NCBI GenBank assembly: GCA_005191425.1
Contig: SUPR01000085.1
Coordinates: 1 to 14,992, forward strand
From: Candidatus Helarchaeota ASGARD archaeon Hel_GB_B
GTDB lineage: Archaea > Asgardarchaeota > Lokiarchaeia > Helarchaeales > HEL-GB-B
DNA length: 14,992 bases
Reading direction: 5' to 3'
The notes below the pieces were generated by a model. That model saw nothing but the letters and a program-made list of their open reading frames with translations, had not been told where the DNA came from and did not search any database. Position 1 is the stretch's first letter; the number at the start of each line of letters is the position of its first letter. Below, one piece after another: positions 1,572 to 14,512 of the stretch. Position numbers and translations under genes: made by a program.

Positions 1572-2426
1572 ATGAACATTATGCTAATTGGGAAAAATAA
1601 ATTTGATTCAGGTAAGACATCTGTGGCAAGAATATTAACTCAGATATTCAAGAGTTTAGGATTGGAAATCATACCGTTTAAACCACATTCTGGTTTTAAT
1701 TATTGGTATAATTATAATTTTTTGGAATATTATTTTAAATTTGGTGATTTTTATTCAAAAGATATATTAACTTTATTAAAAGATGCAAAATTCTCGTATA
1801 AAATTAACCCATTAATTTTAAATCCAGTCCACCGAGTTTTAGGACCTACTAAAAAATTATTTAACGAGACATTTTTTGATGAAATATTCTTAATAAGATT
1901 TACTAACTTAAATAAACCAAATTTTATACCAAAATCTAAATATTACATAAATCAAAATCATATAGGAATACAAGAAATAATTGAAAAAATAAAAAAACTA
2001 TACATTCCTGAACAAATTAAATTCATTAATTCAATGAGTGAAGTTGAAGAATTATATGTCAATAATTTTTCTATATCTGTTGAGAGTTGTTTTTCTTATT
2101 TAAATAGTAATTTTGAGAATATAATTGTAGAATGCTTCAATGATGCAGCATATCCATTTTTGAACATTGAAAATTATATTGATTATGTAGGTCTTGTTAC
2201 TCCAGGTAAATTGTATATATTAAATAGTGAAAAATATTTTAAAAAATGTGATTTAATGGCAAATATTAACTCAAAATTGCTTTTAACATCAAGTAAAATT
2301 ATTGAACAATCATTAATTATTGCTGAATTTGATATATATCCAGTGAATGATTGGAACAAATTTCTAAAACATCAAATTTTAAATAAATACAGTACCTTAA
2401 AAAAATTCATATTAAAGAACACATAA
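1572..2426 (+). CDS. Predicted P-loop ATPase/GTPase, archaeal COG4028-like (dethiobiotin synthase/CobQ-related fold)
   Basis: N-terminal deviant Walker A GKNKFDSGKTS, then PFKPHSGFNYW, INPLILNPVHR and Walker B-like IIVECFND. This motif order matches the uncharacterised archaeal COG4028 family as I recall it. Confidence 0.75.
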   Translation: MNIMLIGKNKFDSGKTSVARILTQIFKSLGLEIIPFKPHSGFNYWYNYNFLEYYFKFGDFYSKDILTLLKDAKFSYKINPLILNPVHRVLGPTKKLFNETFFDEIFLIRFTNLNKPNFIPKSKYYINQNHIGIQEIIEKIKKLYIPEQIKFINSMSEVEELYVNNFSISVESCFSYLNSNFENIIVECFNDAAYPFLNIENYIDYVGLVTPGKLYILNSEKYFKKCDLMANINSKLLLTSSKIIEQSLIIAEFDIYPVNDWNKFLKHQILNKYSTLKKFILKNT

Positions 2427-2493: not shown

Positions 2494-2826
2494 TTATATT
2501 GCTATAATATTCGATAATAAATAATTAGGACTATCGAATATTTTATTATTTAATTGTGAATAATCTGTAAAATCATTATTTACAAAATAAACGTTTATTT
2601 CATCATTGAACTTTTTGAAAATTATTTTATAATTTAATGTCTTAATTTCAACAATGTTTTCCCCGATAAAATCTTGAATAAATTTATCAACTGCATAAAA
2701 GAAACCAGAAATAATCTGTGGATCGAAGTTTTTATTTGAATGGTCTAATTTTTTATAGAAGTTACATAGACCATTAGAAGATATTTTCAATAAACCGAAA
2801 ATCTTATTATTATTCATTTTAATCAC
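2494..2826 (-). CDS. Small stand-alone longin-like domain protein (Asgard eukaryotic-signature type)
   Basis: Pattern beta-beta (IFGLLKISSNGLCNFY), helix DPQIISGFFYAVDKFIQD (D-x-x-[LI]-x-SG-F-x-x-A-[IV]-x-x-F), then three beta strands (IVEIKT, YKIIFKK, EINVYFV). This is typical of longin/roadblock-type domains in Asgard archaea. The start may be at 2826 or 2817. Confidence 0.7.
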   Translation of the reverse strand: MIKMNNNKIFGLLKISSNGLCNFYKKLDHSNKNFDPQIISGFFYAVDKFIQDFIGENIVEIKTLNYKIIFKKFNDEINVYFVNNDFTDYSQLNNKIFDSPNYLLSNIIAI

Positions 2827-5741: not shown

Positions 5742-6419
5742 TTATAGTAATAATAATAAGATAAATTGACTTATTAATGTTGTGAAAAAACCATTAATTC
5801 CACCAGAAATTAACTGCTTAACTGTGTGCCCTTTAATTTTCCATCTTGCCCATGCGATAATAGGAACAAACAAATATAATAATAAAATTAATGGGCCCAA
5901 ATAAAAACCCATTGCTGTTATTCCGCACATAGCGCCAGAAATATGCATAGAAGTTTTAAATTTGAAGATACAAGTAATAATAAAATCGATAATTAAGACT
6001 ATAACATAAGAGATTGTAAAATTTATAAGAGGAGATAATAACAAATTAAAATAAGTTCTTATAAATGAATAAATGAATATCACGGTCAAATATCCAGGAA
6101 TAATTGTTAAAAAAACAATATATCGCTCTTCTCGAGGAAATTGAGCTCCGACCAATCGAGATTTTCTTCCTAATACAATAAGCGGAATTAAAGGTATTAA
6201 TATATAAAAAATACCAGAAATAGTATTTACAAATATATTTAGGGCAGGAAATTTAGAAATTGGGACAATAATTGCAGTTAATGTCATATATGCAACTATT
6301 TGAAAGGGAGACATAGATAATATTGTTATATATTTTGCTATTTTTTCACTTTTATTGAATATAGGTTCTTTTTTTTTAAAAAAATTGAATATATCTTCAG
6401 ATTTAGTCATAGCCCTCAT
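5742..6419 (-). CDS. PAP2-superfamily integral membrane phosphatase-like protein (about 6 TM)
   Basis: Multiple hydrophobic segments; C2-like KTSMH and C3-like ARWKIKGHTVKQ (R-x5-H-x3-Q). Its start overlaps the upstream gene's stop as ATGA at 6416-6419. Confidence 0.75.
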   Translation of the reverse strand: MRAMTKSEDIFNFFKKKEPIFNKSEKIAKYITILSMSPFQIVAYMTLTAIIVPISKFPALNIFVNTISGIFYILIPLIPLIVLGRKSRLVGAQFPREERYIVFLTIIPGYLTVIFIYSFIRTYFNLLLSPLINFTISYVIVLIIDFIITCIFKFKTSMHISGAMCGITAMGFYLGPLILLLYLFVPIIAWARWKIKGHTVKQLISGGINGFFTTLISQFILLLLL

Positions 6420-10637: not shown

Positions 10638-11019
10638 AAATTGTTGAAAACCTTCATATTATATTCAGATTTCTTCAATATTCCTAAATTCTAAGCTAAT
10701 TAAAATATAATAAAATAAATTAAATTCCAACATAAATTATTTATTTTTTTTAATAGACATTATACAAATAAAGAGTTTATTTATTTTTCATTGCTTTTAT
10801 TAATTGTAGTTTAGTTTTCTAACTTAATTTCACACCATTTTTTAATAGCCACCATAATAGATTTTTAGACCTTCTTGCGATTATCCGGTACATTCTCATC
10901 TTCTCTAAAATATCTTCTACCCAATTAGGAAACTGACGGTAGCCAGAAATTTCATTGTATAAATATCAGATTTATAATATAAATATTTAAACATTAATTG
11001 ATTAATAAAATATATATGG

Positions 11020-11349
11020 ATGACCGCTAAAGATATAATCAGAAGATCCACAAATCCTTATTATTCTGAGGATGTTTATAATTATTATTCAGACAATAGA
11101 TTTAATAATAAAATAGGTTATTATAAACTTATGGCATCTGATGAAGGAATATGCGTGATTATTGGATTTTTTATTATACTTGGATAAATCATTACTGTGA
11201 TTACATATATGAGTGCCCAATACAATTATGCAATGACAGGAAACTTGCAAGCAATAGTTAATGCTAATATGACGGTAATTATAATTTGGGTAGTATTTAT
11301 AGTGATAATAGTTATAATAATAATTGCAATAATTAAATCAGGGGTCTAA
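11020..11349 (+). pseudogene. Small two-TM membrane protein gene interrupted by one in-frame TAA (11185-11187)
   Basis: Hand translation: MTAKDIIRRSTNPYYSEDVYNYYSDNRFNNKIGYYKLMASDEGICVIIGFFIILG*IITVITYMSAQYNYAMTGNLQAIVNANMTVIIIWVVFIVIIVIIIIAIIKSGV*. The hydrophobic helix continues in the same frame across the stop. Confidence 0.55.
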
Positions 11350-11950
11350 TTTGGGGTATTAGAGATAATAAAAATTAAATTTGGTAAAAATATTAGAGGA
11401 ATACACCGCATATTTAGAATATGTGTAGAATAAGGACAGCTTAATGGATAATATGAATATATAAGTATTTCAAAATAAGTCCAAGAAAGATATTAAGTTA
11501 GATCTGATTGAAAAAAAAATCCGAATTTCGAGCAGAATAAAATTGAATAATAATATAAGTATAATTTGTCTATACAAGTCCATAATAACCTATAACCTTT
11601 TTTATCAACAAAATTAAAAATATCATAATAAGATTAAAATCAATAAGAAAAAATACCTTGTTTTCTTTACAAAAAAGATTTCAAGCCATATCTAATTGCT
11701 TTATTTTGCTTAATTTTGATTCATCCGAAAGTAAATCAATTAATAACCAAAATTTTATATTGCCTAATTCAAATATTATTCCTAATCGATTCACCTTTAT
11801 TATTGTATTAAAATGAACCCCTGATTTTTCTAATAATTTTTTTAAATATTAATGTGCTGGAAAAGATCCTGGGGGAAATATGAGTATTATATAATAAATG
11901 GTAAATTGTATAAGGTTTGTTTTAATAGAATATTGAAAAGAAATCAGAAG

Positions 11951-14512
11951 TTAAAGTAATTTAGGTTCCTTTTCTTTTTTTCTTTTTTCTTCCTCTTCCA
12001 ATTCTTTAATTTTTTTAAGTTGTTCACTTGTTATCTTATCGAATTTTAAAAAAGAAGGTAAATCTTCGGAAATATTCACATTATTTCTCTTAACTTCCTG
12101 TCTGGACGATTTAAGGAGGCCATCAATTTCTACTTTATCATCGTCCATTTTTTCTTCAAATTTATTTTCAAGTAATTTAAAAGTTGGCACATTCGGGACT
12201 AAAAGTCTTGCATCTCTGGGTTTTTCAGTTTTTTCAATTCCTAATAATTTGTTTTTATTTTTATCAATCTTTGAACTTTCAGGTATATCACCTAATAATA
12301 GAGAACTTTTCTTATCTTGGTGAGTTTCTTTTATTGTTCCTTCATCTTCTTGAGGGTCTAAGCTGGTCAATAATTTAGGTTCTAATTTTTTAATTTCTTT
12401 TGGTTTTGTCCGGGAATCAAGTAAACTAAAATAAGATTTAGCGTCATTAATCTCTCTATCTTTTGATTTATTATCTTGGTTATTACCTTTTGATTTATCA
12501 TAATATAAAAATGAAGGTTGAGATAATAATTCTTCAGGGAGCTGATTGTTTCGTTTTGGTTCTATTTGAACTTCTTGAGGTTCTGGTATTAATTCAGTAA
12601 TTTCTTTTAATCTTTGGAATTTTTTAATTCTCATCTTTTTTTCTTTTTCAGGTGTAAGGACAGGACTATCTTCACTTTCCCATTCAGTTTGTGAAACTTG
12701 ATCAATTTTTTGAAATGTGAATTCTGTTTCTTGAAGAGGGGCTGTTTTTCTTTTTGGTATATTTTCGATGTTTGGCGATTCAGTAGTATTCATTTGTGGA
12801 CTAATTTCAATTTTAACTGTTTTTTTCAATTTTTTAATTTTGTTTTCAGTAAGAACTGGACTTTCCATTTTTTCCCATTCTTTTTTCTTAATTTCGTCAA
12901 TTTTTAAGAAAGTAGGTAAATTTTCATCATTTGTTATTTGTTCTGTTGTTTCTTGAGCTGCTAGTACCTTTTTGCGTAGACCTTCACTTATATTAACCTC
13001 TTTTTCTTGATAACCAGCAAAACGCTCAGTAGAACTTACCTTATCCGCCGAAGTTTTAGGAACAGCAGACAATTCCCGTTTTTTTCCAAATTCAAAATTA
13101 ATAAAATCAAATGATTCTTGGTCGACTTCTCCATTAATTAGATTTCGGGCTAAAAGAGTATATATCATTTTGAGTACCCTTATTTCCGGTATACGAATAA
13201 TTTCTGAAATTTTGGAAATATTAATTCGGCGATATTGGATTAATGTATTAAGTAAAATTTTGTAAATATAATTTGTGGGTAAGGCAATATCCAGCGTATC
13301 CATTGAATTTAATTGAGTTTTTAGTGAACCTAAAGATATTTCGGTCATATTTGTATAATAATCCAGATCGATCTTCAACTCTCCGCCTATTCTTGTATAA
13401 TCTTCTAATTTAATACGAATTGGTGATAAATCTTGCCCTGATGCAAAAATTTTAGACGCACCTATCCAAGCAGAATATCTTGGGTCATTTATTTCACGAT
13501 AACTTGTAATATTAAATTCCAATTCCCCAAGCTGTCCAATCATCTCCCGAATTAAACGTTCTCTTAGTCCATTTAAAGCACTAGTGCCACCCGTAATAAT
13601 AATATTATTGGCAATCTCCTGGCGTAATGTATTCGTACAACTCAAAATAGATTTAATTATTAAATCTTTAATTGAATATTCATTAATACCAAAAAGTCCT
13701 GGATTAAATAATATCTCACAACTATTGTACAGTGGTATATGTAATTCAATTGTTTCTCCCTTGAATAATGGGATAATTTTAGTTAATTTTCCTTCCATAG
13801 CTTCTTTAAAATCTCTTTTCGGAGATAACGAAACGAATGCTAATGATTCCTTTATATCGGTCGCAAGATTATATGTATCAATTATATAGGACGATTCCTT
13901 ATCTTCCATTAATGGAATGATCTCGGCTTCTAATAATCTTGTAATATTATCCCCACCTATAAAAGCTCTTAATAACCCTTCTGAAACAACATTTCCTCTA
14001 AAAATTGGGGTTATATTACAATTGTAATGCCCAATGTCTACAATTAACGCCGAACCATTTTCAACTCCTGAAGATACTAAATCCGAAAAAGGTTGAATGA
14101 CTGGAATTATTGATTTACATTCATATTTAGCAAATAACAATTCTCCAAGAGATTGTAAAACTTTAGAATTAAAAGGTTGAATTAAAATAAAATCTTGACC
14201 TTTTAATTTAAAATTATATGTGTAAGATATATATTCAAGAAAATATTCTAATAAATCCATATCGAAAAAGTCTTCATTATAAATCAATGGAATTTTTTCT
14301 AAAAGTTTTGAATAATATATTGCAGTATCACCACAAAATAAATCCGGTAATTCACTAAGACCAAATAGATTTATAAGATAATTTTTCATCTCTGCATTAA
14401 GTTTTGGATCTGGACGCCCAAAAATAGATGGAATATCTATTCTCGGAAATGATTCTCCAGCATACCCTATTTTTGTGGAATAATTTCCCATTTCTATAAT
14501 TATTGGTCTCAT
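11951..14512 (-). CDS. Actin-related protein (aa 1-377) fused to a PCI-type winged helix (aa ~412-473) and a charged disordered repeat-bearing tail (aa ~478-853)
   Basis: Eukaryote-type actin motifs in order: IIIEMGNYSTKIGYAGE..P...PSIFGRP, GD, VIQ, VDIGH..N.TPI..G, GG..IT, DIKE, EILFNP, NIIITGGTS..NGLRERL, RYSAWIGAS, EDY..IG. These are followed by YRRINISKISEII...LLARNLINGEVDQ and a K/E/S/P-rich tail. Confidence 0.93.
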   Translation of the reverse strand: MRPIIIEMGNYSTKIGYAGESFPRIDIPSIFGRPDPKLNAEMKNYLINLFGLSELPDLFCGDTAIYYSKLLEKIPLIYNEDFFDMDLLEYFLEYISYTYNFKLKGQDFILIQPFNSKVLQSLGELLFAKYECKSIIPVIQPFSDLVSSGVENGSALIVDIGHYNCNITPIFRGNVVSEGLLRAFIGGDNITRLLEAEIIPLMEDKESSYIIDTYNLATDIKESLAFVSLSPKRDFKEAMEGKLTKIIPLFKGETIELHIPLYNSCEILFNPGLFGINEYSIKDLIIKSILSCTNTLRQEIANNIIITGGTSALNGLRERLIREMIGQLGELEFNITSYREINDPRYSAWIGASKIFASGQDLSPIRIKLEDYTRIGGELKIDLDYYTNMTEISLGSLKTQLNSMDTLDIALPTNYIYKILLNTLIQYRRINISKISEIIRIPEIRVLKMIYTLLARNLINGEVDQESFDFINFEFGKKRELSAVPKTSADKVSSTERFAGYQEKEVNISEGLRKKVLAAQETTEQITNDENLPTFLKIDEIKKKEWEKMESPVLTENKIKKLKKTVKIEISPQMNTTESPNIENIPKRKTAPLQETEFTFQKIDQVSQTEWESEDSPVLTPEKEKKMRIKKFQRLKEITELIPEPQEVQIEPKRNNQLPEELLSQPSFLYYDKSKGNNQDNKSKDREINDAKSYFSLLDSRTKPKEIKKLEPKLLTSLDPQEDEGTIKETHQDKKSSLLLGDIPESSKIDKNKNKLLGIEKTEKPRDARLLVPNVPTFKLLENKFEEKMDDDKVEIDGLLKSSRQEVKRNNVNISEDLPSFLKFDKITSEQLKKIKELEEEEKRKKEKEPKLL
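12632..12916 (-). repeat. Two copies of a 30-aa intragenic repeat, period 65 codons (aa 533-562 at 12827-12916; aa 598-627 at 12632-12721)
   Basis: PTFLKIDEIKKKEWEKMESPVLTENKIKKL versus FTFQKIDQVSQTEWESEDSPVLTPEKEKKM: 16/30 identical without gaps, counted by hand. Confidence 0.85.

What the first reader, a model, noticed from the sequence alone, without database searches (positions are those of the whole stretch)
13094..13279. PCI-like winged helix (proteasome lid/CSN/eIF3 type) attached directly to an actin fold
Seen: aa 424-472 LIQYRRINISKISEIIRIPEIRVLKMIYTLLARNLINGEVDQESFDFIN. From memory, the CSN2/Rpn6 PCI C-terminus reads roughly [50 protein letters not shown], with the same Y-x-RI-x-I-x-x-IS...V...N-x-I-x-G-x-x-DQ pattern. 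PCI winged helices oligomerise through their beta-wings into a horseshoe. Inference: the domain could array several Arp heads into a nucleation template, or dock the Arp on a PCI or ESCRT-II-like WH complex. A DNA-binding WH is the alternative.
Basis: partly seen in the sequence, partly recalled or inferred. Interest (0 to 1): 0.78.

Follow-up and report, generated by a model that had tools for sequence, protein, structure and literature searches.

The report
Asgard actin-related protein with PCI-like winged helix
An actin-related protein of a Helarchaeota-type Asgard archaeon carries, just after its actin fold, a real and conserved winged-helix domain whose shape is closest to the protein-docking winged helices of the proteasome lid, COP9 signalosome and DDRGK1; this domain combination was not found in the papers searched, and its partner is unknown.

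Summary
Window 11951-14512 (-) is one 853-aa gene: an actin fold (aa 1-377), a 35-aa linker, a winged helix (WH, aa 413-475 = window 13088-13276) and a 378-aa motif-rich disordered tail.

The WH is canonical (H1-b1-H2-H3-b2-b3, pLDDT above 90). The sequence signal for PCI is real but below threshold: Pfam PCI 18.9 bits against a cut-off of 22, and CSN2 E 0.006. It appears in only 2 of 10 family members.

Structure gives the stronger evidence. Three predicted models (AF2 of this protein, ESM Atlas models of this protein and of a ~25%-identical relative) all place CSN2, CSN4, Rpn6 and DDRGK1 winged helices nearest. The best PCI match has Z 12.5 (1.5 A over 65 residues); the best DNA-binding WH has Z 9.7. 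The recognition helix and wing carry no conserved basic residues, so DNA binding is unlikely.

It is not a full PCI domain, because the helical-repeat half is absent. It is best read as one more copy of the stand-alone PCI-like WH module that Asgard archaea attach to many proteins.

The Arp-WH-tail architecture is conserved in two families of one order: 5 of 400 Asgard genomes, about 10 distinct sequences.

Oligomerisation and nucleation-template roles remain untested. Earlier scan notes record PCI-like WH modules on other Asgard proteins in other genomes, but not on an Arp.

The parts
13382..14512 (-). Actin fold of the Arp (aa 1-377)
   Evidence: Pfam Actin E 6.8e-45, aa 3-376. Best PDB hits are actins and Arp4/Arp2/Arp1 at E 4e-32 to 1e-22. 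About 26-32% identical to other Asgard actin homologues.
13277..13381 (-). Linker (aa 378-412), probably with one amphipathic helix
   Evidence: pLDDT 49-69 in the AF2 model. Conserved within each subfamily (54-66% identity) but only 6-17% between subfamilies.
13088..13276 (-). Winged-helix core (aa 413-475): H1-b1-H2-H3-b2-b3, PCI/DDRGK1-like
   Evidence: AF2 block pLDDT 92-95. CSN2 Z 12.5, rmsd 1.5 A over 65 residues. Pfam PCI 18.9 bits, below the cut-off of 22. It evolves about as slowly as the actin domain: 68 vs 71% and 60 vs 70% identity.
11954..13087 (-). Disordered K/E/S/P-rich tail (aa 476-853) with repeated aromatic motifs and a conserved charged C-terminal helix
   Evidence: No Pfam domain. 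The motifs and the C-terminal ~25 residues align across all nine full-length family members. Identity is 43% where the folded parts are about 70%.

Best explanation
The region encodes a genuine, selectively maintained winged-helix domain fused, through a short linker, to the C-terminus of a divergent Asgard actin-related protein. It is a stand-alone WH of the PCI/DDRGK1-like structural class, the class that eukaryotes use for protein-protein scaffolding in the proteasome lid, CSN, eIF3 and the UFL1-DDRGK1 ligase. It belongs to the pool of such modules that Asgard archaea have spread over many unrelated proteins. Shown: the fold, its nearest structural neighbours, its conservation, its non-basic surface, and its restriction to two families of one order. 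Inferred: it acts as a protein-docking handle, not a DNA binder. It would tether the Arp head and its motif-rich tail to another protein, most plausibly another WH-bearing scaffold protein, of which this genome encodes at least seven, or to further copies of itself. The partner and the stoichiometry are unknown.
For: The fold is canonical, with pLDDT above 90 over aa 413-475. The nearest solved structures are PCI WHs: CSN2 Z 12.5 at 1.5 A over 65 residues, then CSN4, CSN1, Rpn6, Rpn3, Rpn5, eIF3c and DDRGK1 in ranks 1-28, with the first DNA-binding WH at Z 9.7. Foldseek against PDB and against Swiss-Prot models gives the same ranking. Independent ESM Atlas models of P0001 and of the ~25%-identical P0012 give CSN2, Rpn6, CSN4 and DDRGK1 as nearest clusters. 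Pfam's best hit is PCI and the best PDB sequence hit is CSN2. The family profile A2 matches Asgard WH repeats at hhalign 97.8%, E 1e-12, and those repeats hit DDRGK1 at 7e-9 and CSN4, CSN2, Rpn6 and Rpn5 at 1e-5 to 8e-4. Net charge of the WH core is -4 to +1, helix 3 is net -2 in 7 of 10 members, and no basic residue is conserved. TrmB/AsnC/MarR domains of the same genome are mostly +3 to +12, and its PCI-like WHs mostly -3 to -6. The WH is as conserved as the actin domain. The architecture is present in all 5 genomes of families f1 and f2. PCI/HTH modules on diverse Asgard proteins are described in print (PMC10936438), and UFL1 and DDRGK1 are reported to originate in Asgard archaea (PMC10183829).
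Against: The sequence evidence for PCI is sub-threshold: 17.9-18.9 bits against a cut-off of 22. It is confined to subfamily f1, 2 of 10 members. The whole-family profile finds no PCI chain in PDB; its top hits are a spurious BUB1 match, then Csa3 and Lrp. A local profile-profile test separates PCI-like from DNA-binding WHs of the same genome only weakly: 94.5%, E 8e-8 over 53 columns against 92%, E 7e-7 over 43 columns. In the search over cluster representatives, NiaR, BirA and ScpB lie within 1-2 Z of the PCI hits. The Pfam PCI model gives weak hits in all 14 control genomes. The AF2 alignment contained Asgard WH repeats that are themselves DDRGK1-like, which could bias that model, although the Atlas models do not use it. 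No partner is identified, and gene neighbours are not conserved between f1 and f2.
Confidence: 0.6

Rival explanations
1. Intramolecular module: the linker helix and WH fold back on the protein's own actin fold (for example on the barbed-end groove) or bind its own tail motifs. They would then act as an autoinhibitory cap or a rigid spacer rather than a docking site for another protein.
For: The WH follows the actin C-terminus after only 35 residues, which include a conserved amphipathic stretch. No conserved neighbouring gene suggests an external partner. The tail carries many repeated short motifs that could be ligands.
Against: The linker sequence is not conserved between subfamilies (6-17% identity), which is weak for a fixed interface with the well-conserved actin fold.
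Confidence: 0.18
2. One reading: WH-WH beta-sheet pairing, as in the PCI horseshoe, arrays several Arp heads into a filament-nucleating template.
For: The closest structural class is PCI WHs. By established knowledge of the lid and CSN structures, these associate side by side. The b3 residues F-I-N and the Gly before b2 are invariant or nearly so across the family.
Against: True PCI rings also need the helical-repeat halves and a C-terminal helical bundle, and both are absent here. There is no evidence that this Arp polymerises or nucleates. The single WH resembles DDRGK1-type modules as well as it resembles ring-forming ones.
Confidence: 0.1
3. An ordinary nucleic-acid-binding wHTH (DNA, or RNA/ribosome as for eS10, eS25 or SelB) that tethers an actin-family ATPase to chromatin or ribosomes.
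For: The fold is generic. NiaR, BirA, ScpB, Z-alpha and MarR chains score Z 8-9.7. ESM feature search lists IclR, HTH_24 and MarR clusters, all below the 0.9 score that counts. The A2 profile gives weak Csa3 and Lrp hits and the f1-only profile A1 a weak eS10 hit. Nuclear Arps of eukaryotes work on chromatin (own knowledge).
Against: No basic residue is conserved in helix 3 or the wing. Helix 3 is net -2 in 7 of 10 members and the domain net charge is -4 to +1, whereas the genome's real regulators are mostly +3 to +12. Every DNA-binding Pfam family scores far below its cut-off, e.g. TrmB 12.8 bits against 25.6.
Confidence: 0.12

Closest known systems
WH subdomain of PCI proteins (CSN2, CSN4, Rpn6/PSMD11; Pfam PF01399)
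   Same: Same H1-b1-H2-H3-b2-b3 winged helix. CSN2 aligns at Z 12.5, 1.5 A over 65 residues, 25% identity. The sequence pattern after helix 3 (I-x-G-x-[IV]-D/E ... F) is shared. The surface is acidic or neutral.
   Different: There is no helical-repeat (TPR-like) half before the WH and no C-terminal bundle helix. The Pfam score is below the gathering cut-off, and the signal is absent in 8 of 10 relatives. It sits on an actin fold. No ring partners are known.
DDRGK1 / UFL1 winged helices of the UFM1 E3 ligase
   Same: These are stand-alone PCI-like WH modules used for protein scaffolding. DDRGK1 fills ranks 5-9 and more in the Swiss-Prot fold search and scores Z 10.1-10.5. The Asgard WH repeats that link to the Arp WH (hhalign 97.8%) hit DDRGK1 at E 7e-9. 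UFL1 and DDRGK1 are reported to originate in Asgard archaea (PMC10183829).
   Different: P0001 has no DDRGK or E3_UFM1_ligase Pfam hit; one relative has a hit at E 0.016. Here there is a single complete WH, not a tandem array or a split WH completed by a partner (PMC10702826).
Asgard tandem-WH plus RING proteins and other PCI/HTH-bearing Asgard multidomain proteins
   Same: These are the nearest sequence relatives of the Arp WH outside its own family: P0005-P0011, E 2e-9 to 4e-4 summed over 4-7 repeats. The own genome has 8 loci over the PCI cut-off. PCI/HTH domains on Asgard ESCRT-linked proteins are described in PMC10936438.
   Different: Those proteins carry RING, zinc-ribbon, kinase or longin domains, not an actin fold. 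Each single repeat matches the Arp WH only weakly, at most 21 bits.
Asgard actin-related proteins (ARPs) and Lokiactin
   Same: Full actin fold, with a separate canonical actin homologue of 379 aa elsewhere in the same genome. Asgard ARPs are known as a diverse, patchy group (PMC9834061).
   Different: In the 61 genomes of the class that were searched, actin homologues have reading frames of about 320-490 aa. Only this clade has frames of 715-861 aa carrying WH plus tail. No paper in the searched library mentions an Arp-WH fusion.

Membership tests
PCI domain (Pfam PF01399; proteasome lid / CSN / eIF3 subunits) | Score at or above the Pfam gathering cut-off (22 bits) | tested here: not met
   15.5 bits in the whole protein and 17.9-18.9 bits for the isolated region; 17.4 bits in the genome scan. 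Only 2 of 10 family members hit PCI at E <= 1.
PCI domain (Pfam PF01399; proteasome lid / CSN / eIF3 subunits) | C-terminal winged-helix subdomain with the PCI geometry | tested here: met
   AF2 core pLDDT 92-95. CSN2 Z 12.5 at 1.5 A over 65 residues, and ranks 1-28 are all PCI or DDRGK1 chains. Atlas models of P0001 and P0012 give the same neighbours.
PCI domain (Pfam PF01399; proteasome lid / CSN / eIF3 subunits) | Helical-repeat (TPR-like) subdomain immediately N-terminal to the WH | tested here: not met
   The WH is preceded by the actin fold and a 35-aa low-confidence linker. The Pfam match covers only profile positions 24-77 of 84.
PCI domain (Pfam PF01399; proteasome lid / CSN / eIF3 subunits) | Assembly with other PCI subunits into a ring through WH beta-sheets and a C-terminal helical bundle | not testable with these tools
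   No partner is known, and the region C-terminal to the WH is disordered.
DDRGK1/UFL1-type stand-alone PCI-like WH | WH fold closest to DDRGK1/UFL1 WHs, and a homology link to Asgard WH repeats of that type | tested here: met
   DDRGK1 Z 10.1-10.5 and many DDRGK1 rows in the Swiss-Prot fold search. A2 against A6 gives hhalign 97.8%, and A6 hits DDRGK1 at E 7e-9. The A6 rows were picked by likeness to P0001, so the hhalign value is somewhat inflated.
DDRGK1/UFL1-type stand-alone PCI-like WH | Pfam DDRGK (PF09756) or E3_UFM1_ligase (PF09743) match | tested here: not met
   None for P0001. One of 10 relatives hits E3_UFM1_ligase at E 0.016, below cut-off.
Actin / Arp family (Pfam PF00022) | Full actin fold above the Pfam cut-off | tested here: met
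   153.8 bits, E 6.8e-45, profile positions 6-401 of 410.
DNA-binding wHTH regulators (TrmB / MarR / AsnC-Lrp) | Family Pfam score above cut-off, and a basic recognition helix or wing | tested here: not met
   TrmB 12.4-12.8 bits against a cut-off of 25.6. Helix 3 is net -2 in 7 of 10 members, there are no conserved basic residues, and core charge is -4 to +1.
ESCRT-II winged helices (Vps22/Vps25/Vps36) | Tandem WH pair with ESCRT-II-like geometry, and Pfam EAP30 or ESCRT-II hits | tested here: inconclusive
   3cuq_A scores Z 7.6 at rank 48, well below the PCI hits. No ESCRT-II Pfam family is listed at E <= 10. Only one WH is present.

The most novel reading that the evidence does not exclude
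The WH plugs an actin-family ATPase into a WH-based scaffold. Either it pairs with one of the genome's PCI/UFL1-like multi-WH proteins, or it self-associates to array Arp heads. With the motif-rich tail, the protein would then work as a pre-eukaryotic Arp-based organiser or nucleator of Lokiactin, built on a different principle from Arp2/3.
Probability: 0.12. Interest if true: 0.85.

Novelty: new variant of a known kind. Interest (0 to 1): 0.5.

Why it matters
Asgard actin-related proteins are thought to regulate the Lokiactin cytoskeleton, but none has a known partner or mechanism. This clade offers a built-in handle: a small, well-folded docking domain of the class that eukaryotes use to build the proteasome lid, CSN, eIF3 and the UFM1 ligase. 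That turns the question of what an Asgard Arp binds into a direct pull-down or co-folding experiment. It also adds the actin family to the list of Asgard proteins that have acquired the PCI-like WH module. The distribution is narrow (two families of one order), so it says little about the eukaryotic ancestor itself.

Tried and rejected
- AF2 with only the four closest orthologues gave a poor, all-helical model (mean pLDDT 57.6). It was not used.
- Complex prediction on two copies of the WH (aa 402-482) returned no verdict (score 0.01). It says nothing for or against self-association.
- The whole-family profile A2 against PDB gave a spurious BUB1 kinase match on top, then weak Csa3, KAT7 and Lrp hits, and no PCI chain.
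- Metagenome scans added no new family member. The first found none. The second found only copies of sequences already held.
- ESM Atlas feature search gave only generic HTH clusters, all below the 0.9 score that counts.
- Gene neighbourhood gave no neighbour conserved between subfamilies f1 and f2. In the window the upstream side ends after 480 bp of 18.5% GC with no ORF.
- Rfam and tRNA scans of the window found nothing.
- The ESCRT-II reading scored only Z 7.6.
- Literature searches for an Arp-WH fusion in Asgard archaea found nothing relevant.
Full report
**What is there.** The finding lies in a single 853-codon ORF, window 11951-14512 on the minus strand. The quoted peptide is exactly aa 424-472 (window 13097-13243), and the finding's range is aa 412-473. 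Pfam recognises a complete actin fold at aa 3-376 (E 6.8e-45). The best solved relatives of that part are actins and Arp4, Arp2 and Arp1, at E 4e-32 to 1e-22. A near-identical database protein is labelled Candidatus Helarchaeota archaeon (P0003). The window is 20-32% GC.

**Is the PCI resemblance real?** By sequence it is real but sub-threshold.
- For aa 395-490 alone, Pfam PCI is the top family (E 0.0018, 18.9 bits, gathering cut-off 22), covering profile positions 25-77 of 84. The next hit is TrmB at E 0.11.
- Against all PDB sequences the best hit is plant CSN2 residues 353-417 (E 0.0064), followed by the CSN4 PCI domain (E 1.5).
- The PCI model is not very specific. It gives weak hits in all 14 control genomes, and in this genome the Arp ranks eleventh of 14 matches.

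**The family.** Relatives with the same three-part architecture exist.
- Subfamily f1: P0003, P0004, and the same-genus genome G126.
- Subfamily f2, more distant: three genomes of a second family of the same order (G123, G124, G125) and the metagenomic proteins P0012-P0016.
- Between the two subfamilies the actin part is about 30% identical and the WH 21-25% identical.
- A profile of the WH region (A2, 10 sequences) run over 400 Asgard genomes finds the fusion in 5 genomes. These are all of f1 (2 of 2) and f2 (3 of 3), and none of f3 (0 of 2) in the same order. The next hits are ~500-720-aa non-actin proteins at E 6e-8 to 9e-7.
- In the 61 genomes of the class that were searched, all other actin homologues have frames of about 320-490 aa.
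- The WH evolves about as slowly as the actin domain (68 vs 71%, 60 vs 70%, 67 vs 65% identity). The tail is at 41-43% in two of these pairs and 52% in the third. The WH is therefore a constrained folded domain.

**Family-level sequence signal.** When each of the 10 members is scanned on its own, PCI appears only in 2, both in f1. The others give weak hits to HVO_A0114, POLR3C_WHD or E3_UFM1_ligase. The A2 profile finds no PCI chain in PDB.

**Link to other Asgard WH domains.**
- An exhaustive search with the WH found, outside the Arp family, ~460-690-aa proteins with 4-7 tandem copies of a similar WH. Several of them end in a RING finger.
- Those proteins hit Pfam PCI (up to 53 bits), E3_UFM1_ligase, DDRGK, TrmB and others.
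- The window's own genome has 8 loci above the PCI cut-off. One is a 682-aa protein with two PCI hits plus E3_UFM1_ligase and DDRGK hits.
- The Arp-WH profile A2 matches a profile of such repeats (A6) at 97.8% probability, E 1e-12. A6 in turn hits DDRGK1 (E 7e-9), CSN4, CSN2, Rpn6 and Rpn5 in PDB.
- The A6 rows were chosen by likeness to P0001, so I ran an unbiased control. A2 against the genome's own Pfam-defined PCI-like WHs gives 94.5%, E 8e-8 over 53 columns. A2 against its TrmB/AsnC/MarR domains gives 92%, E 7e-7 over 43 columns.
- Profile comparison alone therefore separates the two classes only weakly.

**Structure.**
- AF2 with a 31-row alignment (A5) gives a canonical H1-b1-H2-H3-b2-b3 winged helix, with pLDDT 92-95 over aa 413-475. 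The linker is poorly defined.
- Foldseek against PDB: the top 15 rows are CSN2, CSN4 and Rpn6, several at 0.9-1.0 A over about 60 columns. E-values are modest (2e-3 and above), as expected for a 60-residue domain. AspA and MarR-type chains appear from rank 37.
- Foldseek against Swiss-Prot models: all top 30 rows are Rpn6, CSN2 or DDRGK1, although that library holds thousands of bacterial wHTH regulators.
- VIA second look: CSN2 scores Z 12.5 (1.5 A over 65 residues). Ranks 1-28 are all PCI subunits, eIF3c or DDRGK1. The first DNA-binding WH (NiaR) is at Z 9.7.
- Foldseek-independent search over cluster representatives: the gap is smaller. CSN2 scores 11.3, DDRGK1 10.1, CSN3 10.0, NiaR 9.6, BirA 9.4 and ESCRT-II 7.6.
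- Two further models not made by me, the ESM Atlas models of P0001 and of the f2 member P0012, have CSN2, Rpn6, CSN4, Rpn5 and DDRGK1 clusters as nearest structural neighbours.
- The PCI-like geometry is therefore a property of the family, including members with no PCI sequence signal.

**DNA binder or protein binder?** Across the family, no basic residue is conserved in helix 3 or the wing. Helix 3 is net -2 in 7 of 10 members, and the core carries a net charge of -4 to +1. In the same genome, TrmB/AsnC/MarR domains are mostly +3 to +12 and Pfam-defined PCI-like WHs mostly -3 to -6. The invariant positions are hydrophobic core residues, an Asn in H1, the Gly before b2, and F-I-N in b3. This favours a protein-binding role.

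**What it is not.** It is not a PCI domain in the family sense. The score is below cut-off, the helical-repeat half is missing, and the sequence after the WH is a disordered tail rather than a bundle helix. It is a stand-alone PCI-like WH, as in DDRGK1. Such modules on many Asgard proteins are already in print (PMC10936438), and UFL1 and DDRGK1 are reported to originate in Asgard archaea (PMC10183829). Earlier notes of this scan describe the same module on Asgard membrane, RING and HEAT proteins in other genomes, but not on an Arp. I found no paper describing an Arp-WH fusion.

**Mechanism.** Shown: fold, class, conservation, non-basic surface and distribution. Inferred: the WH is a docking handle that ties the Arp head and its motif-rich tail to another protein, or to itself. 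Gene neighbourhoods give no partner.

**Verdict.** It is a new domain architecture built from known parts, of moderate interest.

Noticed in passing
window 10638-11950: A 1.3-kb stretch at 23% GC between the convergent MBL-fold gene and the Arp gene. It has no ORF of 60 aa or more, no Rfam or tRNA match, and only weak AT-rich repeats. This is unusually long for an intergenic region in this window.
   Followed up: partly
window 11954-12040 (aa 825-853): The last ~25 residues (pattern EEQL-x-x-IKE-x-EEEE-basic run-KLL) are conserved in all nine full-length family members across both subfamilies. From my own knowledge, the L-x-x-I-x-x-L spacing in an acidic context recalls MIM1-type MIT-binding helices of ESCRT-III. 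This was not tested.
   Followed up: no
L038 / L039 (P0012; NCBI GCA_035531115.1, DATKTP010000099.1): The NCBI record is named Candidatus Deferrimicrobium sp., which by my recollection (not checked here) is a bacterial name. The contig nevertheless encodes this Asgard-type Arp, Arf-like GTPases and a TBP, and the identical gene lies in genome G124, which falls in the same order as the window's genome. The name is probably a mislabel or a misbinned contig.
   Followed up: partly
G000:C160:19226-21403 (L002:622-2667:-): A 682-aa protein of the same genome has two above-threshold PCI hits plus E3_UFM1_ligase (E 8e-11) and DDRGK (E 1e-6) Pfam hits. It looks like a UFL1/DDRGK1-like tandem-WH protein and is a candidate WH partner.
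   Followed up: no
L037:5322-7807, L038:2682-5196, L039:1372-3886: In subfamily f2 the Arp gene is preceded by a conserved 547-aa radical-SAM gene and a small unannotated ORF (127-187 aa). An Exo_endo_phos gene and an unannotated 424-428-aa gene lie downstream, directly in L037 and about 4 kb away in L038 and L039. L038 and L039 also carry Arf-like GTPase genes 3-4 kb upstream. None of this is seen beside the f1 genes.
   Followed up: partly
P0013-P0016 tails (alignment): The f2 metagenomic members carry 3 to about 8 tandem copies of a Y-[VI]-P-S-[FY]-[QE]-x-Y-x-T-G motif right after the WH. It has expanded most in the 912-aa P0015. The f1 proteins have other motif sets.
   Followed up: no
window 1572-2426 (+), 2494-2826 (-), 5742-6419 (-): Three ORFs (284, 110 and 225 aa) have no Pfam match at E <= 0.001. 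They lie among ordinary genes: an alpha/beta hydrolase, a GH20 hexosaminidase-like gene, an M20 peptidase and an MBL-fold gene.
   Followed up: no
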